The notes beneath the pieces were generated by a model. The model made no database searches, had not been told where the DNA came from, and saw only the letters and a program-made list of their open reading frames with translations. Source: Naegleria gruberi (taxonomy: Eukaryota). Taken from it: 64,000 bases of DNA. Below are positions 523 to 26,187 of this stretch, in pieces (within the stretch, counting starts at the first letter, position 1; every line of letters starts with the position of its first letter). Location of the stretch: assembly GCA_000004985.1 (NCBI GenBank), contig GG738907.1. One strand, written 5' to 3'. Position numbers and translations under genes: made by a program.

Positions 523-2733
523 ATGTGCCAAATCATGATGAGGAGTACTAGTTTCGAAGAAGAAGAGGAAACATCTGATGAGGAACAACAAGAACATACC
601 AGTCCTATTCATGCTGATGAAGAAGAAACTGCTGAACAAAGTTCCTCCGAAGATGAAGAAGAAGAAATTATGCTAGCAGAAGATGACGATTTATTAACCC
701 AACAGAATAATCACCATCAGCATCACCCTAACGAAGAAGAAGAAGAAGAGGATTTAAATAATCAACAAGAAGAAGCAGCACCAATTATTGAAGAAGAACA
801 GGAGGATGAAGATTCCGATTCAACTAAATTATCATCACCTGTTATTAGTACTCATCATAATAATCAACACAACACATCTACAGCTAATAGCAGTAGTGGT
901 GCTGCTGAGGAATCCATTCAAATTGATGAAGATGATTTAGAGACGCTGAGAAGGGATGATCATATGGAAAATGGTCTTTTGGAATGCGATGAGGAGATGG
1001 ACTACTTGTTGAATGATGAGAAGATCATGATGCCACAAACACCTCTGCTCATTAATAATGATAATTTTACGACGCCAAATAGTGCTGGATCTGTAACTGT
1101 GGCTATGCCTTTTTTGGATGATGTGGATGGTTGTGTGGAATCAAAACCATTGAATGAGAACGAAATAGAGTGTAAATTAGAATGTAATATAGTAACAACA
1201 GAGGAAGTATCAGAGAAAGAAAATGTAGAATTGGCCACTGAGAGCTCAGTTCTACAGATGAATCAGCCAATTGCACATAACTCTGAGAGTTTAATCGAGA
1301 ATCGTCAAACAATTTCTATTGCAGATGAGCAAATGAATGTTTTAGTGATGGAAGATGATCAGATTGTTGTGAATCAAGAAGTAATAGAGAAACCATCTCT
1401 AATTCAACAACAGGAAACCCAACCAAATAACACAGATATCATCTCATCAATTAATTTGGATGAAGATTTAGATATTGAAATGATTAATGACTTCCTGCAA
1501 TCAGAAAAGGGAGCCGATTTGTGTGAAGAACATTCAAAGGAAAATTCCCCTCATGGAGACTCTATCAGTAATCAGAGTATGAATGATTCTTGGAATACCA
1601 ATTACACCACCGATAGTTTAGGTTCAACAATGCACCATCGACAACCAATGCAAGGTTGTACTCCATTGATATCGAGAAAGAACTTTAATCATCATGCTCA
1701 AAGTATTCCACTGGAAGACTTGCTGCAAAATTATGATCATCGAATTGAGTACTCTACATTGGAAATGCTTATTAAGGAGCTTGAGGGAATAGGTGTTTAT
1801 ACAGTCAATAGTTTACCGCTAGTGCCAAAGAAACATATAATGGCTCTTCCAGGTATGGATGATAGATTGTATGAAAATTTGATGGATTCTGCTCAAAGCT
1901 TGGATCCTTCTCAATCCTTTGGATTTTCCACAGCAACACAATTTCTGCACGAGTTTCACACCAAAAGATACAAGGTCACTACTGGATGCACTGCTTTTGA
2001 TGAGTTGATTGGTGGTGGTTTTGAATCCTCCTCAGTGAGTGAACTTTTTGGAGAGTCTAGCTGTGGTAAAACTCAAGTGTGTTTCACACTCTGTTTAACT
2101 GCACAACTACCACTAACTGAAGATGGTCCCTCTGGAAAGGTTTTGTACGTGGATACAATGGGAACATTTAATCCGAGTAGAATTCAGAGTATTGCAGAAA
2201 GATTTTCTAAAGATGATGAGAGAATGACCACCCTCTTCATGAATAATATTTTGAAAGAAAGAATTTATACATCAGATCAATTATTTTCAAATCTCAATAG
2301 AATTACAACTCTTTTGAAAAGTAATAAGGGAAAACCATTCAAATTGATTATTGTTGATAGTGCTGTCAGTGTTTTCAGGTCTGAATATAAGGGAAAGGAT
2401 GAAATCAACATTCGTCAACAATACTTGTTAAAATATTTGGATTCTCTGAACAAACTAGCTGAACAATTTAATATTGCCATAGTAATTACCAATCAAGTTA
2501 TGGACACATTCGATAAGCCACTAATGTACTCACCTTACAAACAAAATACTTCATCTACCATTAAACCAGTTGGAGGACATATTATGGGTCACACCATTCC
2601 AACAAGAATCCAACTTTGTAGAGAGAAGCAGAAGAGAATTGCCAAAGTATTTAAATCTTCAACCAGGCCAGAAGGTGTCTGCAACTTTTCAATACAAGCA
2701 ACAGGTATAACAGATTATGAAGATGTAGACTAG
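523..2733 (+). CDS. RAD51-family recombinase paralog (RecA-like ATPase core with HhH region) and a long acidic N-terminal extension
   Basis: Walker A GESSCGKTQ and Walker B KLIIVDS in RecA-fold spacing; helix-hairpin-helix-like segment (LEGIGVYTVNSL...LPGMD) upstream as in Rad51/XRCC3-type proteins; ~430 aa Glu/Asp/Asn-rich N-terminus; single exon. Confidence 0.7.
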   Translation: MCQIMMRSTSFEEEEETSDEEQQEHTSPIHADEEETAEQSSSEDEEEEIMLAEDDDLLTQQNNHHQHHPNEEEEEEDLNNQQEEAAPIIEEEQEDEDSDSTKLSSPVISTHHNNQHNTSTANSSSGAAEESIQIDEDDLETLRRDDHMENGLLECDEEMDYLLNDEKIMMPQTPLLINNDNFTTPNSAGSVTVAMPFLDDVDGCVESKPLNENEIECKLECNIVTTEEVSEKENVELATESSVLQMNQPIAHNSESLIENRQTISIADEQMNVLVMEDDQIVVNQEVIEKPSLIQQQETQPNNTDIISSINLDEDLDIEMINDFLQSEKGADLCEEHSKENSPHGDSISNQSMNDSWNTNYTTDSLGSTMHHRQPMQGCTPLISRKNFNHHAQSIPLEDLLQNYDHRIEYSTLEMLIKELEGIGVYTVNSLPLVPKKHIMALPGMDDRLYENLMDSAQSLDPSQSFGFSTATQFLHEFHTKRYKVTTGCTAFDELIGGGFESSSVSELFGESSCGKTQVCFTLCLTAQLPLTEDGPSGKVLYVDTMGTFNPSRIQSIAERFSKDDERMTTLFMNNILKERIYTSDQLFSNLNRITTLLKSNKGKPFKLIIVDSAVSVFRSEYKGKDEINIRQQYLLKYLDSLNKLAEQFNIAIVITNQVMDTFDKPLMYSPYKQNTSSTIKPVGGHIMGHTIPTRIQLCREKQKRIAKVFKSSTRPEGVCNFSIQATGITDYEDVD

Positions 2734-9763: not shown

Positions 9764-10100
9764 TGCATTGGATTAAGTGATAATCACTTTGTCCAATTGG
9801 ATGACTGTTAAACAGTAGCACTCAGTGCAAGAGAGTGTGAACTTTTAATGGTACTAACAAGAAGAAATTTCTTAGAGGGTAATGAAAGCAAGAATGAAGA
9901 GTGACGATTGGCAATTCTTATATTGTTCTCTCTTTGCTTTGTACTATTATTTTCTCAGAAATTCACAATTGTTCCGATATCTTTCAGTCAACAGCAAATT
10001 CTTCATCAAAAATTTTTCATCAAATATTTTGAATAACCTCAAAAAAACGATTTTCAAATAAAATTTAAAATTATAAAATTTGGATAAAAAAATTGAAAAA

Positions 10101-13100
10101 ATGTCTACGGCTACGACATCATCGAAAAAGAAGTCAAGATCCTCATCATCTTCGGGTGGTGTTGAACGTGGCAAGACCATCAAAAAGTCGAATTATTACT
10201 TGATGGGAGAGCGTGAACCAACCAGTGAAATGTTTCAAACTCATATGGACAAGTTGGTTCAACCTCATGTTTCATCATTCGATGCTTTTGGTAATGAAAT
10301 GATGGAAAATATTGCTAAATTTTTATTTCCACTTCACTTGTTCCCAATTAGAGTCGGAGGTAAGAAAACAGATGATAGTACTACTACTACTCCAAATACT
10401 ACAGCAGCAACAACAACAACCATAACCACAACAACAACTACTCTCAGATACTCAACATATATTGAATCAATGAGTTTATCAAAGCCTGTTGTTGGAGATA
10501 ATTTAGTAGACCAAACTGTTTTATCCGAGAAGAGAATGGATGATGAATCACAACAAACACTAGGTGCTTTTACTTCTTCACAAAAAAGAAAAGGCTTACG
10601 TAAGGAAATGTATCCAAAGGATGCTCGTATTGCTGGTGTTAACTATGGAGGAAGTTTAAAGGCAACAATTTTGTTAAAGAACGAAGAAACAGGAGCCATT
10701 GAACGTATTCCTGATATCCAACTTATGGAAGATTTCCCAGTTATGATTAATTCATCATTCTGTAACTTGCCTAAACTTTCTCCAAAACAAAAGATGTTGC
10801 AAGGTGAAGAAGAACACGAATCTGGTGGTTATTTCGTTGTTAGAGGAAGTGAAGTTGTCTATCGTCTCTTAACACAACAACGTGCCAATTTCCCATTTGC
10901 TATTACACGTCCTTCTTGGATGGGTTATAAGGAAGATTTTACTGATAAAGGTATTTTGGTGAGATGTAGACATCCAAAGACACTTATAACGAGATTGGTA
11001 AATATTCACTACAGAAGAGATGGTGTCGTTTTCATGAGAGCTGGTAATCCAGTGCCATTCTATATTAACATTGTTTTGGCATTGAAAGCTTTGAGAGAAT
11101 GTTCCGATAGAGATTTGTTCTTGCTACTTACTGCTGGTACCAAGAATAAGGTTACTTTGGATCGTGTTGTTGAACTTTTGGGTGATTTTAGAAAGACTTT
11201 CCCAACTGTTCAAACTCGTGAAGATGCCATCATTGCTTTGGGTACAATTTATGATCCACACGGATTGAGAAGATTGGAAGAACCAGTTGATAAGAACAAA
11301 TTAATCAAATCTGGTTATGAAGTTCTTAAAAATATCATTTTACCAATGTTTATTGATGAAGATGCGGATATGGAAACAAAGGAAGATTTGAGAATTACTC
11401 CAACTGCTTCAGAATGTCAAAAGAAATTCGATTTTTTGGTTTATTGTGTTCAAAAATTATACAAATTTGTCGATGGTGAAATTGCTGAGGAAAATTTGGA
11501 CGATTTTGATAACCACGAGCTGTTGACTGTTGGTGAAGTTCTTTCCAACGTTATTCCACTTATTATTTATAACAAGATTCAACTTGCACATGGTACTTGT
11601 GCCAAACTATTGATGAAATCGGCAACTACAATGCAACCAGATATGTTGGAACAAAAATATCTTGCTCTCTTTAGAGACAAGTGTAAGAGTATTCTTTCTA
11701 AGGCATGTCCAAATGATATTAACAGACTTTTCAGTGTTGGTGATGTTTCAGTTTCTGCTCCTTTCCGTCCAGAATTGTCTCAAACTCGTGCTCTCTTTAC
11801 CAAACTTGAAAGAATCAACTTTTTGAGAGTTATTTCTCACTTCCGTGCTACTCACAGAGGTATTGCCTTCTTGGATTCTAATTCAACACGTATGAGAAGA
11901 TTGACACCATCATTCTGGGGGTTCATTTGTCCTGTTCACTCTCCTGATGGTCACTTGTGCGGTCTCGTAAACCACTTGTCACAAACCACTGAAATTGTTA
12001 CACATCAAGCCAAACCAAAGGAATTGAGATCTGTTGTCGAAATGTGTTTGAAATTGGGTATGCTTCCTTCATCTACTGAAAAGTGTATTTCAGTTTCTAT
12101 TGAAGATGAAGCTCCGGTCATGCTCGATGGTGCCATTATTGGTAAGGTTTCACATGATAAATTGCAAAATCTTGCTGATCAATTGAGATATTGCAAGGTT
12201 TCTGGAAAGTATGGATTACCTAAATTCATGGAAATTGCTTGTCAACCAAAGTACTCTGCTATGGATATTCCATATTTGCCACAATTGAACATCTTTACCG
12301 ATATTGCCAGAGCTGTCAGACCAGTCAGATATTTACCAACAGGTCAAGATGAATGGATTGGTAGTGCTGAACAAGTTTTTATGAATATTGCTGTTACTGT
12401 TGAAGATATTAAGCCAAATACTACTCACATGGAAATTGATCCAACTAACTTTATGAGTTTCCTTGGTAATTTGACACCATTCTGTAACTTTAACCAATCT
12501 CCTCGTTGTATTTATCAGTGCCAAATGGCCAAACAATCTATGGCAGCAGTTTTCCACAGTGTTGACCATAGAGTTGATACCAAGTTGTTCGACATGAAAT
12601 TACCACAAAAACCACTCACCAGAACTAAGCATCAAACTGATTTACCTTTCGACGAATTTAACAATGGTTGTAACGCTGTTGTTGCTGTCATTTCTTATAC
12701 AGGTTACGATATGGAAGACGCTATGATTATGAACAAGACATCATATGAAAGAGGTATGATGCACGGTACTGTTTTCAAGACTGAAGATATAGATTTAACT
12801 GAAGGAACAGCTTTCCTTACAAATAGAGTTTTCGACAAGACTGAAATGGATTCTGATTATCAAGCTAAGGAATTTGAAGATTTGGATTATGATGGTCTCC
12901 CAGAAGTTGGTTTACCACTCGATGAAGGATCTATCTTTGCTAATTATTATGATCCTGAAAAGCAAAAATTCATGCCAATGAAATGGAAAGATGTTGACTC
13001 TGCTACTGTACACAGCGTTAAAGTTATTGCAACTGACCCATCTGACTACAAGAAGGTTAAACATGCTTCCATAACTTTCAGACTCAATCGTAACCCAATT

Positions 13101-13919
13101 ATTGGTGACAAGTTTTCATCTAGACACGGTCAAAAGGGTGTCTTGTCCATTTTGTGGCCTCAAGAAGATATGCCTTTCACTGATGGTGGTATTGTCCCTG
13201 ACATTGTTATTAACCCTCACGCTTTCCCTTCACGTATGACTATTGGTATGTTAGTCGAATCAATGTCCTCCAAAGCTGGTGCTTTGCATGGTTACTTCCC
13301 AGATGCTACACCATTCAGTTTCAGCGAAGAAAATACTGCTGTTGATCACTTTGGTGAACAATTAAAGAAGGCAGGTTACAATTATCATGGTAATGAAGTT
13401 ATGTACTCTGGAGCTTTGGGTACAACTTTGAAAGCTGATATTTATATGGGTGTTGTGTACTATCAAAGATTGCGTCACATGGTTTCTGACAAGTATCAAT
13501 GTCGTGTTGGTGGTCCAACTAATGCCATTACTCATCAACCTGTTAAGGGTAGAAAGAAGGCTGGTGGTGTAAGAATGGGTGAAATGGAACGTGATGCTCT
13601 CGTTGCTTATGGTGCTGCTGCTGTTGTTAAGGATCGTTTCTTTGATTGTACAGACTCTTCAACTGCAATTGTTTGTACATGTTGTAACCAAATGAATACC
13701 ATTGTTAAACCTGATATGGGAACTGGAAGTGGTCCAATTGTTAGTGGATCAGGAATTGGAGCTAATTTGGATGAACTGTTATGTTGTGTTTGTAAAACTA
13801 ATCAACATTTGCGAACAATTTACATTCCATACACAACCAAATATCTGCACAGTGAATTGGCTGCTATGGGAGTTAATTTGAAGATTTGTGTTGATGAACA
13901 CACTAGTAGGAATATGTAA
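10101..13919 (+). CDS. DNA-directed RNA polymerase I second-largest subunit (RPA2/A135-like)
   Basis: GDKFSSRHGQKGV catalytic motif, C-terminal Cys4 zinc ribbon (CTCCNQ...CCVCK), N-terminal LVQPHVSSFDAF resembling the yeast A135 VQPHIGSFNAL segment; track ORF starts at TTG 10080, first ATG at 10101; Ser/Thr-rich insertion near N-terminus. Pol III RPC2 not fully excluded. Confidence 0.85.
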   Translation: MSTATTSSKKKSRSSSSSGGVERGKTIKKSNYYLMGEREPTSEMFQTHMDKLVQPHVSSFDAFGNEMMENIAKFLFPLHLFPIRVGGKKTDDSTTTTPNTTAATTTTITTTTTTLRYSTYIESMSLSKPVVGDNLVDQTVLSEKRMDDESQQTLGAFTSSQKRKGLRKEMYPKDARIAGVNYGGSLKATILLKNEETGAIERIPDIQLMEDFPVMINSSFCNLPKLSPKQKMLQGEEEHESGGYFVVRGSEVVYRLLTQQRANFPFAITRPSWMGYKEDFTDKGILVRCRHPKTLITRLVNIHYRRDGVVFMRAGNPVPFYINIVLALKALRECSDRDLFLLLTAGTKNKVTLDRVVELLGDFRKTFPTVQTREDAIIALGTIYDPHGLRRLEEPVDKNKLIKSGYEVLKNIILPMFIDEDADMETKEDLRITPTASECQKKFDFLVYCVQKLYKFVDGEIAEENLDDFDNHELLTVGEVLSNVIPLIIYNKIQLAHGTCAKLLMKSATTMQPDMLEQKYLALFRDKCKSILSKACPNDINRLFSVGDVSVSAPFRPELSQTRALFTKLERINFLRVISHFRATHRGIAFLDSNSTRMRRLTPSFWGFICPVHSPDGHLCGLVNHLSQTTEIVTHQAKPKELRSVVEMCLKLGMLPSSTEKCISVSIEDEAPVMLDGAIIGKVSHDKLQNLADQLRYCKVSGKYGLPKFMEIACQPKYSAMDIPYLPQLNIFTDIARAVRPVRYLPTGQDEWIGSAEQVFMNIAVTVEDIKPNTTHMEIDPTNFMSFLGNLTPFCNFNQSPRCIYQCQMAKQSMAAVFHSVDHRVDTKLFDMKLPQKPLTRTKHQTDLPFDEFNNGCNAVVAVISYTGYDMEDAMIMNKTSYERGMMHGTVFKTEDIDLTEGTAFLTNRVFDKTEMDSDYQAKEFEDLDYDGLPEVGLPLDEGSIFANYYDPEKQKFMPMKWKDVDSATVHSVKVIATDPSDYKKVKHASITFRLNRNPIIGDKFSSRHGQKGVLSILWPQEDMPFTDGGIVPDIVINPHAFPSRMTIGMLVESMSSKAGALHGYFPDATPFSFSEENTAVDHFGEQLKKAGYNYHGNEVMYSGALGTTLKADIYMGVVYYQRLRHMVSDKYQCRVGGPTNAITHQPVKGRKKAGGVRMGEMERDALVAYGAAAVVKDRFFDCTDSSTAIVCTCCNQMNTIVKPDMGTGSGPIVSGSGIGANLDELLCCVCKTNQHLRTIYIPYTTKYLHSELAAMGVNLKICVDEHTSRNM

Positions 13920-14535: not shown

Positions 14536-15735
14536 ATGGGAAATTGTTTCGGCGGTGATCAACCGGATAAAGGCAAACAAACACCAGTTGGTGACCCGAA
14601 TACTGTAAAGAAGAGTAATGGAAAACGATTATTGTTGGTGGGTGCAGGAGATTCAGGAAAAAGTACGTGATTGATATCTAGTTGAGTCTTTAACTATTTT
14701 ATTATTATTATAGGTACGATATTTAAACAATTGAAAAGATTATTCTCGCAAGGTTTCGCACCAGATGAACTGCAGAATCTGAGACCATATATTTTGGATA
14801 ATGTCAGTAGAAATATGATAAACCTGTGCTATGCCACACAACAATTAAATATTCCAATAGATCAGGAAAATATAGAGAGAAGAGATTTGTTTGCTGGTAT
14901 GTATGCAGATACGAGAGCATCGATGGCAAATGCTAAAAAGTGGAATGCAAATACAGCAAACGATTTTAAATTACTGTGGAAAGATAATGGGTAAGTGAAA
15001 AACAAATAATAATTATCGAATTAATTTGGAAATTCAATAGAATTAAAACAGCATTCAGACAATACAGAGGTACATATCAAATAGAAGATGGTGCACCTTA
15101 TTATTTCGATAAAATAGAAGAGTTAGCTAATCCTGAATGGGTACCACTTGAAGAGGATATTTTAAGAACAAGAATCAAGACAGTTGGTCTTGTGGAGCAG
15201 CAATTTGTTTGTGATGGAACCAATTTTTCAATTATTGATGTTGGTAAGTTTTGTAATATAATTCAGAATTTTGTAAAATATTGTAATCATAGGTGGTCAA
15301 AGAAATGAACGTAAAAAGTGGTTGCGTAACTTTGAGGATGTCGACGCAATTATATATGTCTGTAGTTTATCAGAGTTTGATCAATCGTGTTATGAAGATG
15401 GTATCACAAACAGAATGATAGAATCTCTATCATTATTTGACAGTTACATTTCATCAGATTATTTTAAAACATCACTGGTGTACTTGGTAATGAACAAACA
15501 AGATTTATTCGAAGACAAAATCAATCTCGGAATTAGATTGCAAAACACATTTTCAGATTACACTGGTAATGACGTAGCATCAGCAAAACAATTTATTGAA
15601 GAAAAATACAAAGTGTTAGATACTTTTGAGAGATTACGATCGGTAATGTATTTAACTGCTTTGGACACTGCAAAAATTAAGGAAATGTTAACTTTTATCA
15701 TAGGAGACATGAATCAAGCTGAAACTGAAATATAA
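14536..15735 (+). CDS. heterotrimeric G-protein alpha subunit; CDS join(14536..14662,14714..14990,15041..15243,15293..15735), 349 aa
   Basis: MGNCFGG N-terminus (myristoylation/palmitoylation context), GAGDSGKSTIFKQLK P-loop reconstituted across intron 1, RTRIKTVGL, DVGGQRNERKKW across intron 3, NKQD, TALD; three GTAAGT/GTACGT...AG introns of 49-51 bp; exon lengths sum to 1050 nt in frame. Confidence 0.85.
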
Positions 15736-15742
15736 TTATTTT

Positions 15743-18700
15743 CTACAAATCATCAAGATATGACAAGTCATCAAAATCTATTTCTGTTGGAGTATTCTTT
15801 TTTCCTTCATCTGTTTTAGTATTGTCCTGTGTCAATTTGATATCAGAGTTCATTTCACTAAAATTAATCGTTGGTTTAAGTGTTTGGATAGGTTCATTAA
15901 ATGATAAATCCTTTTCCAAGTTTGTTGAACTGGTATCTTTCTCAGGAGTCGGTGTCATGAACTCAAACTCTTCAATAATTTCCACTTCACTTCCTGTTGA
16001 AAGTTTTTTCTTTTTTGGAGTGTTATCTTGAGCTTGAATTTCCTCTTTTTCAGGTAGGGAAATTTGATCTATCTTTCGTTTAGAGCTACTACCCTCTTCC
16101 ATTTCTTTCATAATCTCATCAGCGGCATTAAAATCAACTTCTTCATCGCTGAATTCATACTCATTTTCTTCTTCCGTGGTGTTATTAATATTAGTGGTTG
16201 GCTCTTCAGGTGAACCTGATGGTTTGTTCTCTTCAAAGTCATATTCCATTTCATCTTCATCAACCTCAATTTTATGTTTGTGTCGAACAGCAGAGAGCTT
16301 TTCCAAGTGCTTGTTCTTTTCTTTTGGTTTTGAAACCAAAAGATCTTCACTCAGAATACTGTCATCAATATCATCGTCGTCCAATAAAAGTTGCTTACTA
16401 GGCTTATTGATAGGATGATAACAATGTTTAAACTTGCTTAAAAAGTCAAAATCGTTATTGGCCAAAATAATGTCGCTAAGCCAAATAGAACCTGGAATTT
16501 TTTGGGCATGTCCAATAACTTTGCTCCAATATGATCCTCTCAATAGAGTTTTCATTTTACCAACAATAACCAAGTGATTTCTTGCTCTAGAGAGTGCTAC
16601 ATTCAAACGTTGTTTTTGTTCAATGAAAGCCAATCCGTATTCACTTGTTCTTGATGTTGAAACAAAGACAATATTCTTTTCACCACCTTGGAAGGCATCA
16701 ACAGTACTCACTTTAACTGGCTTTAAATTGTTGGTAATGAATTGAGTTTTAAGGTATGTCTCTTGCGTCTTGTATAAGGCAATGACACCAATATCTTCGT
16801 GTGCAATACCATTTTGAAGCAAGAGTTGAATAAAGTGGATTATAGCCTTGGTTTCAAGTTCATTCTTATACGAGTTGTTTTCTAAAGTTTCAGTTCCATT
16901 TTCACAATCAATTACAAGTACAGGTGGCATTCCAGGAATGAGAGCCTCTCTGTCTTCTTCAGTTATACCATCCACCAGTTTTTTGTCATAGAATAGTTCA
17001 TTGGTAATTCTTGAAATTTTTGGATGGCAACGATATTGTGTTCTAAGCAAGTGAGGTTCACAACCAATATTTGACAATCTGATAAATATTGTCTTTTCAA
17101 GAGAATCTTCCTTATTTTCGCCACTTCTACTACCTGTAAGAGTTGGTGGAAGCTGCAAAGGATCACCAACAGCAACAAATTTCATGCAACTAAATCTAGC
17201 AAGTGGAAGTAAAGCAAGAGGTTCCAAACACTGAGAACTTTCGTCAAGAATGAGAATGGAGAACTTTTGATTTTTTAAAACTTCAAAACCAGTGGCTGCA
17301 CATGTAACTCCAACAACACGGGCATCCTTGATAGATTGCTTTCTGTTTTCATAGACACCACTTTTGAGATCCTTGATAGCTTGCTTGATACCAGCTTCTT
17401 CATCAGCATCAATGTCCTTATCCTTTAACATATCCTGAAGGGATTTGATTTGGTCTTTAACAGATGTGTTCTCAGTGCTAACAGTGTAGGGAAGGACCGA
17501 TTTGGCGATCTTCTTTTGACTACCAACTCTGACAAGATTTTTGTAATTTTCAGTGATAAGACCTTCCAGAATGTTATCTACGGCAACATTAGTAACTGAG
17601 GCAATGAGAATTCTTATTGAAGAGTTGTCTGCCTCATCCAATATTCTACACATAAATAATATGAGAACAATCAATAATGTGGTCTTTCCCGCACCAAAAA
17701 CACCATGAACTAGTTATTGTTAGAATAATCAATTAAAGGAAATTAAAAACATACCTAAACAAATTGGAGAAGAAACATCACCCTTCTCAAACCACTTGGC
17801 ACATCTGTAAATAAGATTACCCTGATCCTCATTAAGCTTGTATTCTTCTATAAATGATTTGGCAGTATTGTATATTTCGTCGTGATCCATTTCCAATTCA
17901 AAAGAAACAACTTGTTGATCGGATGCATCTTGTTTCTCTTCATTATCACCCTTGGATTCATCTTCGGTTGCAGTTTTTTCAATTGGTGGTTTAAATTTTG
18001 TTTTCAATCTCTTTCTGAACAATTCCAGTGATTCTTGTTCTGTTGTACCCAATATTTCAGTTAGGAGTGGTAACTTGAGTGGATCCAATTCTGTCAAGTT
18101 TTCAATCATTTCAAATTCAGTAGAAAAGTTTGGACCTCTAATAGCAAATAGTGTCTCTTGCTCTAAATTGACTCCAAGTCCACTAATAATTTCCAATTCA
18201 ACTTTACCATCCTTGTCAGGTCCATGGAAAACACTTTTGGCAAGTACCAAGTGGCCAGTTTTGTATTGGAAATCCTTAGACTTTGACAATATCCAAATGT
18301 CATCCTTGGCATAAACGGCACTCTTTTCCTTGTTTTCTATTTGTAAGAACCATTGAGTAATGGCAGTCTTCTTTCTTGAAGAACCAAAAGTTTGCTTTAC
18401 AAGATCACAACCAAAATAAAAATGAATTCCATTTCTTCTAAAGAAGGACATTCTATCAAAGTCTCCTGTCTTATTTTCCAAGAAACCATTTCTACTATTT
18501 GTAACAAAGGATGGATGAACATTGTTGGCCCAAGAAAAAAAGTTGCAGGTATCATTCATAGTTGACTTTCCGCATCCATAGAATGGTTTGCCCTTGTTTG
18601 GTCCATCTTTCTTGACAATCTTCAATTTGGCCTTGAGGCTACATTTGCAATTAGGAGCATTATCATTCTTTGGTGCTCCTGCCATTGATCCAGTCTGAGT

Positions 18701-20896
18701 AATCTTACGATAGGTTTTGTAAAAATTATTGGCCAGATTGAACATTTGTAAATTCATTTCCTCAAAGATGGCATCCAAAAAAACAGCCTTATAGTGTTCA
18801 ATAGTTGTGAATTTGTTTGGAACCTCAATAAATCGTTTTGGATGAGTATTGTTCTGTTCATAAAGATCATTCATTTCCATATCTGGAAAGATTATTTCAT
18901 GTTTGGTCCTCTTGAGTTTTTGTACCAATGATAGAATTGGAATATCGGTTGTATTGGAGTGAGATACTGATGATTCTTTTGGAGATTCTTTCTGACCCAT
19001 ACTCAATTGAGTTTGTTTAAATTTCTTATTAGGTGAAACTCTTGTTGGTGGAGCAAACTTTTGAGCGGGAAGAGAGTTTGGTGGAGTAGCATGTTGACAA
19101 GAGGAAGAGGATGATGCAGAAGAAGGAGAAGGAGGAATAAATCTTTGAGGAGGTGTGAAGGTAGTTGAACCACTAGACTTGTTACTGGACACTGATGATG
19201 GAGCTTGAGGAGTTGTGAAATTAGAGGAGCCAGTATCATCATCATCGTCGTCATCGTCCATTAAAAGTTGTCGCTTATGTGGTTGACTTGGTTTTGGTGT
19301 CGATTTCACTGGGGGTTTCACTGTTTGGGTTGGTGGATTAAATGTGGACTTTTTAACTTTTGGTGGACTATCCAATTTCAAATCCTCATCTGAATCTACA
19401 TCAAGATTTTCCAAACTGAGATCAAGTTGTGGGGTTGGTAGTTTTTGTTTTTGTACAATTCTCGAAGCTGACTGAAAGTTTGAGCTGGTATTTACATTAT
19501 TTACACTCGTAAAAGGAGTTGTCTTTTTAGGGATATTGGTTTGTGATTGAATGTTTGGTCTAGAATTTGATTTGGTTTCTGGAATGGAAATCAGACCATC
19601 TTGGAAGTCATCGTCATCCATAAGAAGATCAATTTTTGGTTTGTTGGCTTGGTTGTGAGAAGCTGGCTTACTCATTGATTGTCCTCCTACAGCTCTGTTT
19701 GATGAAGCACTCACGGGAGGGTGCTGTTGTGCCTTAGGTACTTGAATCTCGTCCTCTTCCTCTAATATGTAATCACTTTCATTGTACGGCACCTCCTTTT
19801 CCTCTTCTTCAAATGATGGAGGTCTGTACAGGGCTCTAGTAGGCTTATTTTGATTATTTTCAAATTTACTCTTTAGGAATGAAGCTGTTGAGGAGTGATT
19901 GGAAGTTTCCTTTTCAAACTCGAGTTCAGTAAAATCAAATGTTTCGTCATCCTCTTCGTCGTAGATCTGTGGAGTGGATGATGCCCCTCTTGCATAACTA
20001 GGTTGTTGTTGTTGAGGTGGATTATATCTATTATTTAAATTAGTATTTTGATTGGCAAGGTTTGAAACTTTTTGTTGGTTGACGACCTGCTTCGGAGTAG
20101 CTTGACTAGCACTCTTAAATGATGAAGTATTATTTGCTTGACCGTAACGACTAGTTGGTGTTGTTGTGGCAGAATCATTCTTGAAGAATTTACTTGTTAC
20201 AGCAGGTTTTGTTGATGGAATATCAACATCTCCAAAATCTATTTCACCATCCTCCAAGGAAAACTCATCATCCAAGTCTTGTTGTTGTTGAACAGCTCGT
20301 GCTGGAGGAAGCCTTGAAGTGTTAGTGGAAACAGCTGAAGGTTGTTGTTGTTGGAAAATTGGTGATGGAGTCAATCTGGAAGGCTTTGGATTGCCTTCTT
20401 GTTGATTTCCCTGTTGTTGCTGGTCGCTACCATAATTCTTCTTCCATGAATCATAATTCTCCTTTAGAGGAGGCTTGAATTTCTTGACTGATGTAGTAGT
20501 AGTAGTTGTTCTGGTTATTGTTGGAGTGGTCCGAGAAGGCTGCTGAGAAGATTGGGAAGGCCTTGATTGTTGTGAGGTTGATGTTATTGATGATATATTA
20601 CTATTATTATTATTGCTACTCGATGATGAAGCCTCTGATGATGATGAAATTTCGTCTTCAATTTGAATTTTCAGACTCTTTGTTGTAAATTCCTCTCCAT
20701 TCTCCACATTTGTTATGCCATCACAGTGAGACATGAAAGTTTGCTCCACCTTGTTATTCTTCTCATCGAGAATGATCAATGATTTAGTATCCACATTGTA
20801 CTTTAAAAATCCGTCCTTGTATGATGGAGCCTTCTTTCTCAATTGATTGGTGTAGAGAATTCGGAAGGTTTTAATATTATTAGTATTAGAAGACAT
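15743..20896 (-). CDS. ZGRF1-like protein: DUF2439 N-terminal domain, GRF-type zinc finger and C-terminal Upf1-like SF1B helicase; CDS complement(join(15743..17709,17755..20896)) approx, ~1700 aa
   Basis: N-terminus FRILYTNQLRKKAPSYKDGFLKY (DUF2439/Mte1-like); GRF zinc finger CKCSLKAKLKIVKKDGPNKGKPFYGCGKSTMNDTCNFFSW; helicase motifs VHGVFGAGKTT (I, reconstituted across a 45-bp GTATGT..AG intron), ILILDESSQ (II), VAVGDPLQLPPT (III), QYRCHP (IV), TVDAFQGGEKNIVF (V), LNVALSRARNHLVIVG (VI); long Ser/Gln/Asn-rich linker. Confidence 0.8.
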
Positions 20897-21127: not shown

Positions 21128-22219
21128 ATGCATTGTTGTTTTGATTCAGTTGTCTCGTTGTGTGTATTGAGTTTTCTTCATCACAGAGACTGGCCAATCA
21201 CAAAGCCTTTCCTAATTTCCTACACTTTCCGCAAGGTATTCAATTCCGATCGTTTCACCAGAGAATTTTTACAAAGACAATTGAAATTGGAGGATTGTGA
21301 TAAATTGGAGGAGACAATTCACAACATGTACTACAAATTTAATTCATCAAATATTAAATGTTACAAAAGAGATCAAAACAAATACCAAATGATTACCAAG
21401 CCAGGTTCTTTGAGGGATGTTTTTCGAATTTATTTTATTTCATCTATTAATGGTGAAGAATCAATGCTCACTAATAAGATTGACACTATTATCAAAGTGT
21501 TTAACAAGGAACGAAATGCCAAATTGTTGGATACGGTTGTAGAACTTGTCAAGGATGTCAAAAATAGTGTAGCTACTTTAGATTCTTTTTATGACTTGAC
21601 AGAGAATGAAGATACTCACAGTACTGTTTATTATTACTTTGGAGTTGATGAGATATCATCTGAAATCTTTCCAAGAATATTCAAGAAATTGAAAGGAGTT
21701 TATTTCCTCAATCAAGAAGAAACAGACATTTATGATTGTGCAGCATTTAACACATCAGTCGTAGTATTCACAAATTCTGGCTATCCTCTACTTATTAAAA
21801 CAGAATACACAACTAACACGGATACTTATAGAGGCCGTATTGTTGAGGAGGAAAATTGTTCAATTTATTCAGATATGATATTCACACACTCGAAACATTT
21901 CGATCAACGTGGAGATTTTCGTCCTGAATTTGAATGTAGCAGATCTAAATTATTGAAAAGTATTCAACCTTTGATATTTAAAAAAGATAGTGCAATAACT
22001 TTGATGGATGAAGTTGAACATCCTGAAAACCAAGCGAAGGATGGCTTGATTTATGCATTCTTCCAATGTGCATTTGGAGTAAAGAAAAATTATTTTGCTC
22101 AAAATGTGAAGGATGATGATTGGGTACCTCTTTGCATAGTTAAAGATGGTAAATTCATTGAAAACCATGCAGATAGTTCAGATGACGAATTTCCTTCCAA
22201 AAAAAGAAAATACAAGTAA
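21128..22219 (+). CDS. hypothetical protein (363 aa)
   Basis: ATG-initiated ORF, Lys-rich C-terminal tail (KKRKYK); no recognisable domain. Confidence 0.35.
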   Translation: MHCCFDSVVSLCVLSFLHHRDWPITKPFLISYTFRKVFNSDRFTREFLQRQLKLEDCDKLEETIHNMYYKFNSSNIKCYKRDQNKYQMITKPGSLRDVFRIYFISSINGEESMLTNKIDTIIKVFNKERNAKLLDTVVELVKDVKNSVATLDSFYDLTENEDTHSTVYYYFGVDEISSEIFPRIFKKLKGVYFLNQEETDIYDCAAFNTSVVVFTNSGYPLLIKTEYTTNTDTYRGRIVEEENCSIYSDMIFTHSKHFDQRGDFRPEFECSRSKLLKSIQPLIFKKDSAITLMDEVEHPENQAKDGLIYAFFQCAFGVKKNYFAQNVKDDDWVPLCIVKDGKFIENHADSSDDEFPSKKRKYK

Positions 22220-22315: not shown

Positions 22316-25300
22316 TTAAACAGAAGAAACAGTTACTTTCTTTCGATGTGTCAAAAACCATAATCTCAGTCCAAATGCTATACATGCCACAAGTCCCATA
22401 CCTCCAACTATTGGAATACTAATTAAGGCAAATAAGGCATACATGCTATTATCATTGGATTGTGAACAAATATTACTTTTACATCCATCTCCACAATAAT
22501 TAGCTTGGCACTGATCACAATTTGATCCAGTCCAATAACCATCTGCAGAATTGGCTTTACACTGACATATGTTTTGTGAAATGCAAAGTCCGTGACCTCC
22601 ACAAACAGCAGAATTGGTTTTTGGAATTTCAAAACATGTCCAAGAATCTGAATTGCCTGGAGTTTTTGTGGAATTTTGTGTTGTTGATTGAGTAGTATTA
22701 TTTACAAGAGTGTTATTATTACTTGTCGTGGTAGTATTTACATTATTGCCTATAAGTGTATTATTATTTACAATTGTGTTATTTGAAGAGTTAGTATTTG
22801 TAATATTATTATTTGTTATATTGTTTACAGTAGAATTATTATTCAATGACACAGTCTCATTTGTATTCATTGTTGTATTATTCGAATTATTGACAGTAGT
22901 GTTATTTGTAATAGTATTATTTGTAACGGTAGAATTTGAATTAAGTGTTGAGTTTGAAATAGCGTCATTGCTTAATGTTCCATTATTGTTTGGAATTGAA
23001 TTATTGGTATTGGAATTATTCATCTCTAGAGTGGTAGTATTTACAATAATTGAGCAATCCAATCCCTTCCATCCAAATTGACAATCACACTTATTTACAG
23101 TTGAACAGTTTCCATTTCCGGAACACACTGAACTATCATTGGCAAAAATGTTAAAGCAAGAAGGGATGGAACAATCGAATCCAAACCATCCATTAAAGCA
23201 TTGACAAGAATCAGTTGCTGTGCAATTACCATTTCCAGAACAAACTGAGCTCTCATTGCTTACAATTCCAAAACAAGTGGACAATTCACAATTATTTCCA
23301 TAAAAACCAGGATTACAAATGCAAGTATTTGGTGAATTACAAACTCCTCTTGATGAACAAACTTTTGAAGAATTTGAAATAATTCCAAAACATTTAGAGA
23401 ATTCACAAAATTGACCACCGTATAAATCTCCACAATCACAAACATCAGGTGCAAAACAAACACCCAAGCCATTACAGACATTTGGATTGTTGGCAAAGGT
23501 TCCATTGCATGTACGAAGTGTGGATATTACTCTTAGTCGACTATTGTCAGAGTCAATTACAATTATTTCACCATTTCGTCTTAAAATTACTCCAGATGGA
23601 TTATTGATTTTTGAAGCGGAGGCAGTGGTTCCATCTTCACTGTAACCCAAATCACCAGTTCCTGTAATGGTGGTGATATTACCATTAGAGAGAACTCTTC
23701 TAATTCTATTATTGTACGAATCTGCAATCAAGAGTTCATCACCGTCAATGGCAATTCCTTGTGGATATTTGAGTTGTGCATTTGTTGCTTCGATTCCATC
23801 ACCGTTATAACCTAATGTGCCTGTTCCTGCAACAGTTATAATTGTTCCATTAGTAAACATCTTTCTTATTCTATTGTTATAAGTATCTATTTGAATTAGT
23901 TCATCAATTGAAGATTCTTATTTCACTTACCTGCAATGTACATGTTATTACTTGAATCAAATGCGATAGATTGTGGATAATTCAGCTTGGTATTGTTCGG
24001 TAAGAGATAATCACCATTAAAACCAACAGAGCCTCCAATAACTGTGGAAATATTTCCACTTGGTAATATTAGTCTAATTCTATGATTATACGTATCTGTA
24101 ATATAAACAAGATCATTTGAATCAACAGTTACTGAAACTGGGGAATTGAGTTTCGCATTTGTTGCTGGAATTCCATCGCCATTGTAGCCACCTAATCCAA
24201 CTCCAGCTATAGTAAGAATTGTACCATTTGTCAAAATTTTTCTAATTCTATTATTACCAGAATCTGGTAAAGTTTCAATACAAAAAATAATGGAAGATTA
24301 CTTACCTGCAATATAAATATTACCAATGGAATCAAATGCAATTCCTGTTGGTTTGTTAACTTGAGCACTTGTTGCCAAAATTCCATCTCCATTATAACCA
24401 AAAGATCCAGTACCTGCAATGGTTGTGATGGTCCCATCCAAGTACGAAATCTTTCTAACTCTGTGATTGCTTGTATCTGTGAAAATCATTGAAACCTTAA
24501 TAAATTTCACACAATCAACTGAAAACTTACCAGCAATGTAAATATTTCCCAATGAATCCAATGCAGCACCTTTAGGTTTACTCAATGCGCTCAATCTAGA
24601 ATCAACATTTTCACCACAATATGATGGAGAACCTTGTCCAGCTATTGTGGTAATAAATCCATTTGAAATCTTTCTAATTCTGTGATTTCCCTTATCAGCA
24701 ATATATAAATCACTTGTGTTCTTGGCAAAATTCATCAATTCAGGAGAGGCAAGAGTTGCCAAATTGACCGTAGTATTATCAGTAAAACCATACAAACTCG
24801 TTCCTGCAAATGTTGTAATGGTTCCATTGGTAGACACCTTTCTAATTCTATTAGAATCTGAAAAATAAACTTCGCCTAATGATGAAACTGCAACTCCATA
24901 AGGTGAATTAATTTTAGCTAAGGTTGCCAGGCCTCCATCTCCATAATAATCACCTGTTCCAGTACCGGCTATGGTTACAATAGTGCCATTCAATAATACT
25001 TTACGAATTCTGTTATTATTGGTGTCAGCAATATAAATATTGTCTTTCGTATCAACAGCAACACCAAAGGAAAGAAACAAAGTTGCACTCGTAGCTTTCA
25101 TGTTATCTCCATTGTAACCTGTGAAAAAGTAATAAATTAAAAAACAGTTCCGTTAAAATACATACCTTGAGAATTGCTTCCTGCCACTGTTATAATTGTT
25201 CCATTGTTGAACACTTGGCGAATTCTATTATTGTTCACGTCGGTAAAGAGTAATTCTTCCTTGCTATTTAATGTAAGGCCATAAGGATAATTAATAGCTG

Positions 25301-25790
25301 CATTTCTGGCCAATCCATTATCTCCAGAAAAGGAATCAACTCCAGTTCCGACAATGGTTATAATAGTACCATTGGTTAATATCTTTCTAATTCTATTGTT
25401 GCCATTATCACTGAACAACACCTCTCCCATAGAATTAACAACTACTGATACAGGATTTTTCAATTGAGCTCTAATTGCTTCAATTCCATCTCCGTTATAT
25501 CCTGAAAATCCAGTCCCTGCAATTGTTGTAATGGTGCCATTTGGAAATACTTGACGAATTCTGTGATTATTGCTATCTGCAATGAAGAGTGAACCATCTG
25601 GACCCAATGCTGATGATGCAGGATTTGCCAAAGAAGCCTTAATTGCCAAGCCACCATCACAAACACCTCCACCTGCAATTGTTGTGATTCTTCTCAATGA
25701 TGTAGTATTCTGTGCTTGAATTGTTGCAAGAGCGCTTGAAAGTAATAGGAAGACGCTGAGCCAGTAGAATGGATTTTGAGTATTGTACAT
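22316..25790 (-). CDS. secreted/membrane NHL-repeat protein with EGF-like Cys-rich repeats, Asn/Thr-rich stalk and C-terminal TM; CDS complement(join(22316..23886,23931..24263,24306..25118,25166..25790)), 1113 aa
   Basis: signal peptide MYNTQNPFYWLSVFLLLSSALATIQA; >10 NHL-type repeats (TIAG.G..GY.GDG.A..A.L..P.GV..D..G..YIAD..N.RIRKV); EGF-like C-x-C spacing (CNGLGVCFAPDVCDCGDLYGGQFCE repeated ~6x); NNT/NNS glyco-stalk; TM MYALFALISIPIVGGMGLVACIAFGL; four track ORFs join in frame through three 42-47-bp GTAAGT..AG introns (total 3342 nt). Confidence 0.75.
22690..23050 (-). repeat. coding low-complexity Asn/Thr/Ser-rich tract (N-glycosylation-type stalk) inside the NHL/EGF gene
   Basis: translated as TNNTITNNTTVNNSNNTTMNTNETV...; mirrored spurious ORF on opposite strand (22710..23081). 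Confidence 0.5.
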
Positions 25791-26187
25791 GGTTTTGATG
25801 TCAACTGGGTTTTTTTCTTTTTGTTTTCCTGTTGCATATATGATTAATAAATGTTCTAGAGATGCAATGAAGTGTAAGAGCTCAAATTCTAGCTGCATCC
25901 AACCAAATTAAGCCCTTAATCATTTGATCTCTATTGGAATGATATATTTGGATTTCCATGGAGATCCTTGGGTTGTTGAGGAAGAGTTCAACACACAACT
26001 CGTCGAACAACATAAGAATCCAAAATTCCTTAGATATCCTACACTACACTCGATCTTATTAGAATTAATAAATAAATCTGTTGAGTTTCCACATGAGTTT
26101 CTCTAATTGTCAACAAATGTCATTGAATTACACAATCATTGCTAGACACATTCATATGATTTATTCAATTCCAAAACAACTTTGAAA

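What the first reader, a model, noticed from the sequence alone, without database searches (positions are those of the whole stretch)
15743..20896. ZGRF1 ortholog with DUF2439, GRF zinc finger and Upf1-like helicase all retained
The N-terminal FRILYTNQ..KDGFLKY (DUF2439/Mte1-like), the CxC...GCG GRF zinc finger and a complete set of SF1B Upf1-like motifs reproduce the architecture of the vertebrate interstrand-crosslink repair helicase ZGRF1. Motif I is only intact after removing a 45-bp intron, which the ORF track splits into two ORFs.
Basis: partly seen in the sequence, partly recalled or inferred. Interest (0 to 1): 0.5.

Follow-up and report, generated by a model that had tools for sequence, protein, structure and literature searches.

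The report
Naegleria ZGRF1 DNA-repair helicase gene
This is an intact two-exon gene in a Naegleria amoeba for the ZGRF1 DNA-repair helicase, with the same three-domain layout as the animal protein; it is an ordinary orthologue whose main value is showing that this layout is older than animals.

Summary
On the minus strand, 20896..15743 holds one gene of two exons, split by a 45-nt intron (17754..17710, GTATGT…CTAAC…TAG). Splicing joins the two listed ORFs into a 1702-aa protein and restores Walker A (GVFGAGKT). Pfam finds ZGRF1-like_N/DUF2439 (aa 8-87), a GRF zinc ribbon (748-792) and the Upf1-like SF1B core (AAA_11/AAA_12, 1020-1433), all well above curated cut-offs. N. fowleri and N. lovaniensis have collinear 1670-1698-aa orthologues. 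Each has an intron at the same codon and phase (50 and 55 nt) and the same tail-to-tail G-alpha neighbour. Outside Naegleria, the best named hits are invertebrate "5'-3' DNA helicase ZGRF1-like" proteins (E 1e-138, about 810 aa collinear). UPF1, Sen1/SETX and DNA2 score far lower (1e-25 to 1e-40), and their own N-terminal domains are absent. An AlphaFold model (pLDDT 82) places the GRF finger between a long N-terminal helix and a beta-barrel, ahead of the two RecA domains. The most likely function is an ATP-driven 5'→3' DNA helicase acting in homologous recombination; this is inferred from human ZGRF1 and not tested here. Verdict: a routine new member of a known family. Entamoeba also has all three domains, so the layout is not an animal addition.

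The parts
15743..20896 (-). Whole ZGRF1-like gene from ATG to stop: 2 exons, 1702-aa product.
   Evidence: Collinear with the N. fowleri and N. lovaniensis orthologues from Met1 to the C-terminus.
17755..20896 (-). Exon 1 (3142 nt; aa 1-1047 plus the first base of Val1048).
17710..17754 (-). Phase-1 intron of 45 nt: 5' GTATGT, branch-like TTCTAAC, 3' TAG, with in-frame stops.
   Evidence: Intron at the same codon and phase in N. lovaniensis (55 nt) and N. fowleri (50 nt). Same size class and signals as the three G-alpha introns. Identical in a 99.5%-identical metagenome contig.
15743..17709 (-). Exon 2 (aa 1048-1702 plus stop).
   Evidence: Called as a stand-alone 636-aa protein (P0005) on metagenome contigs.
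20636..20875 (-). ZGRF1-like_N / DUF2439 domain (aa 8-87), a small all-beta domain.
   Evidence: Pfam PF10382, 8.9e-14, 52 bits. AF2 model has pLDDT above 92 for residues 11-80, six strands. K22, D28 and G29 are invariant across 13 homologues.
18902..20635 (-). Low-complexity linker (aa 88-665), presumed disordered, with conserved islands: 139-157 KFKPPLKENYDSWKKNYGS, 489-512 PQLDLSLENLDVDSDEDLKLDSPP, 580-591 FTPPQRFIPPSP, 621-631 SPNKKFKQTQL.
   Evidence: Conservation profile among the three Naegleria species. Disorder is inferred from composition and low conservation; this stretch was not modelled.
18656..18901 (-). Pre-GRF segment (aa 666-747) including a long helix (aa 699-733); interpreted as the first stalk helix of the Upf1-like accessory module.
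   Evidence: AF2 model secondary structure. About 70% three-way identity. Included in the roughly 810-aa collinear alignment to animal ZGRF1-like proteins.
18521..18655 (-). GRF-type zinc ribbon (aa 748-792). Candidate ligands are C750, C752, C775 and C784, with GKPF in place of GRxF.
   Evidence: Pfam PF06839, 9e-13. Aligned to NEIL3 GRF 7omk (2.6e-15) and APE2 GRF 5u6z (2e-05).
18128..18424 (-). Beta-barrel (aa 825-923), interpreted as the domain-1B-like barrel of Upf1-like helicases.
   Evidence: AF2 strands 176-274 of the model. Most conserved block outside the ATPase. Foldseek aligns 650-750 columns to SETX, Sen1 and UPF1.
16502..17707 (-). Exon-2 part of the SF1B helicase core (aa 1049-1450). 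Motifs: I 1050-1057, Ia 1084-1094, II 1202-1207, III 1229-1236, IIIa 1250-1259, IV 1270-1277, V 1383-1392, VI 1415-1424.
   Evidence: Pfam AAA_11 and AAA_12. Residue-level alignment to human UPF1 2xzo. Motif positions. AF2 and Foldseek.
17681..17704 (-). Walker A / motif I, GVFGAGKT. It begins 5 nt downstream of the intron, and K1056 corresponds to human K1660.
   Evidence: The K1660A mutant of human ZGRF1 is helicase-dead (PMC7473174). The equivalence of the two lysines is inferred from motif position.
15746..16426 (-). Acidic C-terminal tail (aa 1476-1702) with genus-conserved islands: 1564-1585 EYEFSDEEVDFNAADEIMKEME, 1650-1658 SFNEPIQTL, and C-terminal DDLSYLDDL.

Best explanation
The locus is the ZGRF1 orthologue of a Naegleria species. 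The species is not N. fowleri or N. lovaniensis; N. gruberi or a close relative is my guess. It is a functional two-exon gene. One 45-nt phase-1 intron lies immediately upstream of the Walker A codons. The 1702-aa product has five parts: an N-terminal DUF2439/ZGRF1-like_N beta domain, a linker of about 580 aa that is presumably disordered, a Upf1-like SF1B helicase module, a GRF zinc ribbon, and a 230-aa acidic tail. The GRF ribbon sits between the first long helix and the beta-barrel of the helicase accessory region.

By analogy with human ZGRF1, the protein is most likely an ATP-dependent 5'→3' DNA translocase/helicase. It would remodel recombination intermediates (D-loops, Holliday junctions) at replication-blocking lesions. 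The GRF finger would contribute single-strand DNA contacts, and the N-terminal domain and linker motifs would contribute protein or branched-DNA contacts.

Shown here: the gene structure, domain content, motif integrity, orthology grouping, and conservation of the intron and of synteny. Inferred only: helicase polarity, DNA rather than RNA as substrate, RAD51/FANCM partnership, and the repair role.
For: Gene model.
Pfam: all four domains pass the gathering thresholds.
Orthologues: N. fowleri (XP_044562023.1, 1698 aa) and N. lovaniensis (1670 aa) align end to end at 59% global identity (53-55% by local BLASTP) and without a gap across the exon junction.
Intron: the position and phase are identical in all three species, while length (45/50/55 nt) and sequence differ.
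Synteny: the G-alpha gene is the tail-to-tail neighbour in all three.
Family assignment: Tubulanus and Mytilus 'ZGRF1-like' score 1e-138 and 1e-129, against DNA2 at 1e-25 and UPF1 at 1e-39. In a reciprocal mini-BLAST, ZGRF1-like proteins pick the Naegleria proteins at 430-460 bits, against 180 for UPF1.
Motifs: I-VI are intact against UPF1.
GRF: aligned to solved NEIL3 and APE2 GRF domains.
Structure: AF2 model with pLDDT 81.9 and pTM 0.77; top Foldseek hits are SETX, UPF1, Sen1, DNA2 and IGHMBP2.
Polymorphism: against a 99.5%-identical contig, all 8 differences in exon 2 are synonymous.
Biochemistry of the human protein: 5'→3' helicase, K1660A dead, D-loop dissociation, Holliday-junction branch migration, RAD51 binding, epistasis with FANCM (PMC7473174).
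Against: No transcript evidence supports the splice. No biochemical data exist for any non-mammalian ZGRF1. Human ZGRF1 was not retrieved for a direct reciprocal search, and the rest of the Naegleria proteome could not be searched for a closer paralogue. The closest solved helicases (UPF1, SETX/Sen1, IGHMBP2) are RNA or RNA/DNA helicases, so the DNA preference rests only on the human ZGRF1 study. The GRF signature Arg is Lys here (GKPF), although NEIL3's second GRF repeat has the same substitution.
Confidence: 0.9

Rival explanations
1. It is a different Upf1-like SF1B helicase (UPF1, Sen1/SETX, AQR, DNA2, IGHMBP2 or ZNFX1) that happens to carry extra domains.
For: The helicase core is 25-27% identical to UPF1 and DNA2. 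The best solved-structure matches by sequence and by fold are UPF1 and SETX.
Against: ZGRF1-like proteins score about 3 times higher in bits and align over about 810 aa, including the pre-GRF helix, the GRF finger and the barrel. Pfam at E<=1 lists no family-specific N-terminal domain such as the UPF1 CH domain, Sen1_N, the DNA2 nuclease or the AQR ARM domain. UPF1 and SETX come out on top in the PDB because no chain named ZGRF1 appeared among the matches.
Confidence: 0.02
2. The two ORFs are separate genes, or the locus is a pseudogene. The 45 nt would then not be an intron: the upstream product would be a helicase-less, Mte1/Dbl2-like protein, and the downstream ORF a remnant lacking a proper start.
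For: A prokaryote-style gene caller annotated exon 2 alone as a 636-aa protein on metagenome contigs. Yeast Mte1 and Dbl2 show that helicase-less DUF2439 proteins exist (PMC4909299). The 45 nt contain in-frame stops.
Against: Canonical GT…CTAAC…AG signals are present and the size is typical for this genome. The intron sits at the same codon and phase in two other species, whose annotated models are spliced. Splicing restores motif I exactly and gives a gapless alignment. The unspliced downstream ORF would begin at a TTG inside RecA1, after Walker A. Polymorphisms in exon 2 are all synonymous.
Confidence: 0.03
3. The protein is a true ZGRF1 orthologue but acts mainly on RNA or R-loops (a Sen1/UPF1-like activity) rather than as a recombination DNA helicase.
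For: The structural neighbours SETX/Sen1, UPF1 and IGHMBP2 act on RNA or RNA:DNA. Nothing in the sequence analysis distinguishes DNA from RNA substrates.
Against: Human ZGRF1 unwinds DNA 5'→3', dissociates D-loops and migrates Holliday junctions (PMC7473174). GRF fingers occur in the DNA-repair enzymes NEIL3 and APE2. DUF2439 relatives (Mte1, Dbl2, RAD54B/Rdh54) are recombination factors.
Confidence: 0.05

Closest known systems
Human and mouse ZGRF1 (C4orf21), 5'→3' DNA helicase
   Same: Same order of parts: N-terminal DUF2439, long linker, GRF zinc finger, C-terminal Upf1-like SF1B helicase with the Walker A lysine (PMC7473174, PMC11787654). Invertebrate proteins that NCBI names ZGRF1-like align collinearly over about 810 aa at 33-37% identity.
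   Different: 1702 aa, against my recollection of about 2100 aa for the human protein (not checked with the tools). The linker sequence is unrelated low-complexity sequence. There is an extra acidic tail of about 230 aa after the helicase, conserved within Naegleria. The GRF motif has GKPF instead of GRxF. No functional data exist.
N. fowleri XP_044562023.1 / KAF0977310.1 and the N. lovaniensis C9374_001801 protein (UniProt 'GRF-type domain-containing protein')
   Same: Direct orthologues: same Pfam architecture, 59% global identity (53-55% by local BLASTP), same intron position and phase, same G-alpha neighbour.
   Different: Intron length is 50 or 55 nt against 45 nt. The linkers carry several indels. 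The gap between the convergent stop codons is 90-100 nt in those species and 7 nt here.
S. cerevisiae Mte1 / S. pombe Dbl2
   Same: They share the N-terminal DUF2439 domain and a long disordered region (PMC4909299).
   Different: The yeast proteins have no GRF finger and no helicase, and act as adaptors for the Mph1/Fml1 and Fbh1 helicases. This protein carries its own helicase.
UPF1, Sen1/SETX, IGHMBP2 and DNA2 (Upf1-like SF1B helicases)
   Same: Same helicase fold: two RecA domains plus stalk helices and a beta-barrel, with all motifs conserved.
   Different: Only about 20-27% identity. They lack the DUF2439 domain, and no GRF finger is inserted in their accessory region. Their own family-specific N-terminal domains are absent here.
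GRF zinc ribbons of NEIL3 and APE2
   Same: Same zinc-ribbon domain, aligned at E 2.6e-15 and 2e-05, with the cysteine ligands and the FF-W motif conserved.
   Different: In those enzymes the GRF is a C-terminal appendage to a glycosylase or nuclease. Here it is embedded in a helicase accessory module.

Membership tests
ZGRF1 helicase family | N-terminal DUF2439 / ZGRF1-like_N domain | tested here: met
   PF10382, 52 bits against a gathering score of 23, aa 8-87, covering profile positions 1-77 of 80. Confident all-beta AF2 model. The YTxQxxKK…DG signature is conserved.
ZGRF1 helicase family | Central GRF-type zinc ribbon with four zinc ligands | tested here: met
   PF06839, 48.6 bits against 25.9. 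C750, C752, C775 and C784 align to the ligand positions of NEIL3 and APE2 GRF domains. Metal binding itself was not tested.
ZGRF1 helicase family | C-terminal Upf1-like SF1B helicase core with intact motifs I-VI | tested here: met
   AAA_11 and AAA_12. Alignment to UPF1. Motif coordinates. Fold match to SETX, UPF1 and Sen1 at E 1e-36 to 1e-33.
ZGRF1 helicase family | Closer to ZGRF1 proteins than to any other Upf1-like helicase (reciprocal similarity) | tested here: met
   Named ZGRF1-like hits at 1e-138 and 1e-129, against DNA2 at 1e-25 and UPF1 at 1e-39. The reciprocal mini-BLAST groups the Naegleria proteins with ZGRF1-like ones. Limits: vertebrate ZGRF1 and the full Naegleria proteome were not available, and no tree was built.
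ZGRF1 helicase family | ATP-dependent 5'→3' DNA helicase activity with D-loop and Holliday-junction remodelling | not testable with these tools
   Known only for the human protein (PMC7473174).
ZGRF1 helicase family | RAD51 interaction and a role in crosslink and homologous-recombination repair | not testable with these tools
   Human and mouse data only (PMC7473174, PMC11787654). A conserved FxxA-containing island in the tail (aa 1564-1585) is a speculative lead only.
Mte1/Dbl2 (helicase-less DUF2439 adaptors) | DUF2439 followed only by a disordered C-terminus, with no ATPase | tested here: not met
   A full helicase core is present.
UPF1 (nonsense-mediated decay helicase) | N-terminal CH zinc-knuckle domain that binds UPF2 | tested here: not met
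   No such Pfam family is listed at E<=1. The helicase is only about 27% identical.
Sen1/SETX, DNA2, AQR, ZNFX1 | Family-specific N-terminal modules (Sen1_N, the DNA2 PD-(D/E)XK nuclease, the AQR ARM/insert, NFX1/RZ fingers) | tested here: not met
   None is listed by Pfam at E<=1. Sequence scores are 3-6 times lower than for ZGRF1-like proteins.
RAD54B/Rdh54 (the other DUF2439-bearing family) | Snf2-type SF2 ATPase after the DUF2439 domain | tested here: not met
   No SNF2 or Helicase_C families are found; the ATPase here is SF1B.

The most novel reading that the evidence does not exclude
The single intron lies 5 nt upstream of the Walker A codons and is conserved at the same codon in three Naegleria species. 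It could therefore work as a switch. Retention of the intron truncates the product before motif I in this species, and I expect the same from the 50- and 55-nt introns of the other two, which I did not test. Here the result would be a 1055-aa helicase-less protein carrying DUF2439, the GRF finger and the barrel, like Mte1/Dbl2. One gene would then supply both an adaptor form and a motor form. A second, less speculative reading is that the three-domain ZGRF1 layout dates to near the last eukaryotic common ancestor and that yeast Mte1 and Dbl2 are reduced derivatives.
Probability: 0.05. Interest if true: 0.45.

Novelty: new member of a known kind. Interest (0 to 1): 0.2.

Why it matters
The practical value is small. 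The finding gives a correct gene model for a locus that ORF-based callers split in two; on metagenome contigs the helicase half is recorded as a stand-alone protein.

There is also a modest evolutionary point. A 2016 analysis described the GRF finger and the helicase as an extension found in the animal ZGRF1 family, relative to the yeast proteins (PMC4909299). The full three-domain layout is also present in Naegleria (Discoba) and Entamoeba invadens (Amoebozoa). The fusion of the N-domain with the helicase is present in Tritrichomonas, Syncephalis and Neocallimastix. The layout is therefore probably ancestral to eukaryotes, and the yeast Mte1 and Dbl2 proteins are probably reduced forms.

No paper in the searched library mentions ZGRF1 in Naegleria. 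None of this is surprising to a specialist, and domain databases already show it implicitly.

Tried and rejected
1. The full-length protein search returned only 4 hits. I think low-complexity words saturated the candidate list. It was repeated with the conserved C-terminal half.

2. I tried to identify the species and learn whether the gene is already annotated by looking for a 100% protein hit. Only the exon-2 ORF from a metagenome matched exactly. The highly conserved neighbouring gene Rpa2 also has no 100% hit; its best is N. fowleri at 81%. The source proteome is therefore not in the database, and the annotation status in the source genome cannot be judged. N. gruberi is a guess from my recollection of its GC content and from the divergence seen.

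3. A fold search of the N-terminal domain against the PDB gave only weak PH-like/DM10-like matches (best E 0.02, TM about 0.5). No functional inference was drawn from it.

4. Synteny on the upstream side was checked and not found: ORF 21128..22219 has no tblastn match in the N. fowleri or N. lovaniensis loci.

5. The readings as UPF1, Sen1, AQR or DNA2, as two separate genes, and as a pseudogene were considered and rejected (see the rival explanations).

6. The exhaustive representative-protein search was not used. It returns no names or taxonomy and would not have changed the verdict.

7. ARAGORN found no tRNA genes in the window.
Full report
**1. Observation**

The window is AT-rich (about 31-38% GC in 2-kb windows) and eukaryotic. 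On the minus strand the ORF list shows two abutting ORFs: 17729..20896 (1055 aa) and 15743..17674 (643 aa). Between them lies GTATGTTTTTAATTTCCTTTAATTGATTATTCTAACAATAACTAG. This is 45 nt at 17754..17710, with a GTATGT donor, a CTAAC branch-like element, a TAG acceptor and in-frame stops. Removing it gives a 5109-nt CDS with a single terminal stop. The product is 1702 aa.

**2. Is the intron real?**

No transcript data were available, so the support is comparative.
- The spliced protein aligns end to end with N. fowleri (1697/1698 aa) and N. lovaniensis (1670 aa) proteins. There is no gap at the junction, and the N- and C-termini match.
- I recovered the genomic loci of both orthologues and searched for the single GT..AG removal that reproduces each annotated protein. 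Each has one intron after SSPICL in phase 1, exactly as here. The lengths are 55 and 50 nt, and the intron sequences have diverged while the flanking exon sequence is conserved.
- The neighbouring G-alpha gene (14536..15735, + strand) reassembles into a clean protein after removal of three introns of 51, 50 and 49 nt with GTAMGT…TAG signals. A 45-nt intron is therefore typical of this genome.
- A metagenome contig that is 99.5% identical at the DNA level carries an identical intron. All 8 differences in exon 2 are synonymous third-position changes. The three non-synonymous changes hit two codons (952 and 982) in the poorly conserved 951-1000 block, in or beside the predicted disordered linker (aa 967-994). 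The sample is small but is consistent with purifying selection.

**3. What the protein is**

Pfam results:

| Domain | Residues | Bits | Gathering score |
|---|---|---|---|
| ZGRF1-like_N (PF10382, formerly DUF2439) | 8-87 | 52 | 23 |
| Zn_ribbon_GRF (PF06839) | 748-792 | 48.6 | 25.9 |
| AAA_11 | 1020-1238 | 106.8 | 27 |
| AAA_12 | 1251-1433 | 158.6 | 27 |

- The GRF segment aligns to the solved GRF domains of NEIL3 (2.6e-15) and APE2 (2e-05). The cysteines and the FF-W motif are in register. The signature Arg is Lys here (GKPF), as it is in NEIL3's second GRF repeat.
- All SF1B motifs are present: I GVFGAGKT 1050-1057, Ia 1084-1094, II LDESSQ 1202-1207, III GDPLQLPP 1229-1236, IIIa 1250-1259, IV RTQYRCHP 1270-1277, V TVDAFQGGEK 1383-1392, VI RLNVALSRAR 1415-1424.
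- No family-specific module of UPF1, Sen1, DNA2, AQR, ZNFX1 or RAD54B appears, even at E<=1.

**4. Reciprocal and family test**

- Using the conserved C-terminal 809 aa as query, the best named hits outside Naegleria are '5'-3' DNA helicase ZGRF1-like' proteins from Tubulanus (1e-138) and Mytilus (1e-129). The first proteins of another family, DNA2, appear at 1e-25.
- Against the PDB, the best sequence match is UPF1 at 1e-39, then SETX, Sen1, IGHMBP2, DNA2, ZNFX1 and AQR. No chain named ZGRF1 appeared among the matches.
- In an all-against-all BLAST of 16 representatives, the two animal ZGRF1-like proteins score 430-460 bits against the Naegleria proteins over about 810 collinear residues. That compares with 180 bits for UPF1 and about 130 for DNA2. 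The converse comparisons agree.
- Limits: vertebrate ZGRF1 itself was not retrieved, and the rest of the Naegleria proteome could not be searched.

**5. Anatomy from structure prediction**

- AlphaFold2 on aa 650-1480 with 19 homologues gave mean pLDDT 81.9 and pTM 0.77.
- The order of elements is as follows:
  - a long helix (aa 699-733);
  - the three-stranded GRF ribbon (about 757-789);
  - a short helix;
  - a beta-barrel (about 825-923);
  - further helices;
  - a disordered loop (967-994);
  - two more helices;
  - the two RecA-like domains (about 1045-1450).
- Foldseek aligns 650-750 columns to SETX (1.5e-36), UPF1, Sen1, DNA2, IGHMBP2, ZNFX1 and AQR.
- I interpret the GRF finger as an insertion between the first stalk helix and the 1B-like barrel of a Upf1-like accessory module. 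This comes from the order of secondary-structure elements, not from an inspected superposition.
- The N-terminal domain (aa 8-83) models confidently as a six-stranded all-beta domain (pLDDT above 92 for residues 11-80). It has only weak PH-like/DM10-like resemblance to solved structures (best E 0.02).

**6. Linkers**

Three-way identity among the Naegleria species is 64-84% per 50-aa block across aa 651-950 and 1001-1450. It drops to 12-30% through much of the linker and tail. Conserved islands within those regions are:
- KFKPPLKENYDSWKKNYGS (139-157)
- PQLDLSLENLDVDSDEDLKLDSPP (489-512)
- FTPPQRFIPPSP (580-591)
- SPNKKFKQTQL (621-631)
- EYEFSDEEVDFNAADEIMKEME (1564-1585, contains an FxxA)
- SFNEPIQTL (1650-1658)
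- the C-terminal DDLSYLDDL

These are candidate docking motifs. I have no evidence for what they bind.

**7. Organism and context**

- The orthologues and the synteny place the window in Naegleria. The G-alpha gene is the convergent neighbour in all three species.
- The adjacent RNA polymerase I subunit gene is 81% identical to the N. fowleri protein and has no exact hit. The species is therefore neither N. fowleri nor N. lovaniensis, and its proteome is not in the search database.
- N. gruberi or a close relative is my guess, not a result.
- For the same reason I cannot say whether this exact gene is already annotated in its source genome.

**8. Mechanism (inferred)**

- Human ZGRF1 is an ATP-dependent 5'→3' DNA helicase. 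Its K1660A mutant is inactive. It dissociates D-loops and migrates Holliday junctions. It also binds RAD51 and stimulates RAD51-RAD54 strand exchange. It is epistatic with FANCM for mitomycin C resistance (PMC7473174).
- Mouse ZGRF1 supports repair and normal crossover numbers in meiosis (PMC11787654).
- DUF2439 is shared with Mte1, Dbl2 and with RAD54B/Rdh54. In the latter proteins the region has been linked to Rad51 interaction and branched-DNA binding (PMC4909299).
- All catalytic motifs and all three domains are intact here and appear to be under purifying selection. The most likely function is therefore the same recombination-intermediate remodelling helicase.
- Polarity, substrate and partners are not shown for Naegleria.

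**9. Comparison and novelty**

- This is a straightforward new member of the ZGRF1 family. Sister-species orthologues are already public with the same automatically assigned domains.
- One point goes slightly beyond the literature I could search. The three-domain layout is not restricted to animals. Entamoeba invadens has all three domains. Tritrichomonas, Syncephalis and Neocallimastix have the N-domain plus the helicase without a detectable GRF finger. The 2016 Dbl2 paper had described the GRF finger and the ATPase as an extension found in the animal family.
- No paper in the library pairs ZGRF1 with Naegleria.

**10. Verdict**

The finding is ordinary, so the interest score is low (0.2).

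Noticed in passing
window 523..2733 (+): A 736-aa ORF whose last 250 aa are a Rad51-family ATPase (Pfam Rad51, 1.1e-72; Walker A GESSCGKT), preceded by an acidic, low-complexity N-terminal extension of about 430 aa. It lies about 13 kb from the ZGRF1-like gene. Human ZGRF1 binds RAD51, but the linkage here is probably coincidental. The gene model (start codon, introns) was not checked.
   Followed up: partly
window 15735..15743: The stop codons of the convergent G-alpha (+) and ZGRF1-like (-) genes are only 7 nt apart, so their 3' UTRs must overlap. In N. fowleri and N. lovaniensis the same gap is about 90-100 nt.
   Followed up: partly
window 14536..15735 (+): A G-protein alpha subunit gene with three introns of 51, 50 and 49 nt (14663-14713, 14991-15040, 15244-15292), all GTAMGT…TAG. 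The product starts MGNCFGG, which looks like an N-myristoylation/palmitoylation-type start.
   Followed up: yes
window 10080..13919 (+): RNA polymerase I second-largest subunit (Rpa2-specific domain PF06883 present), 81% identical to N. fowleri FDP41_003950. In N. fowleri it lies on the same contig as the ZGRF1 orthologue, with locus tags 13 apart. Here only the G-alpha gene lies between the two.
   Followed up: partly
window 22316..25898 (-): A run of ORFs with NHL-repeat and teneurin-like EGF domains (TEN_NHL, EGF_Teneurin). It is probably one multi-exon gene for a large protein with extracellular-type repeats.
   Followed up: no
window 21128..22219 (+): A 363-aa ORF divergently oriented from the ZGRF1-like gene, 231 nt between the start codons. 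It has no Pfam hit and no tblastn match in the syntenic N. fowleri and N. lovaniensis loci, where a different 454-462-aa gene without Pfam hits occupies that position.
   Followed up: partly
L001 / L002 (ENA ERZ929261, run ERR1078381, project PRJEB11402): A public metagenome contains a contig 99.5% identical to window 15723..18093, so the same Naegleria species (a different isolate) is present in that sample. There the helicase half is called as a stand-alone 636-aa protein.
   Followed up: partly
ZGRF1-like protein aa 140-143, 357-360, 519-522, 580-583, 586-589, 614-617, 968-971: Short [FY]-x-P-P motifs recur (FKPP, YRPP, FNPP, FTPP, FIPP, FAPP, FKPP) through the linker regions. Several are conserved in all three Naegleria species. 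Their meaning is unknown.
   Followed up: no
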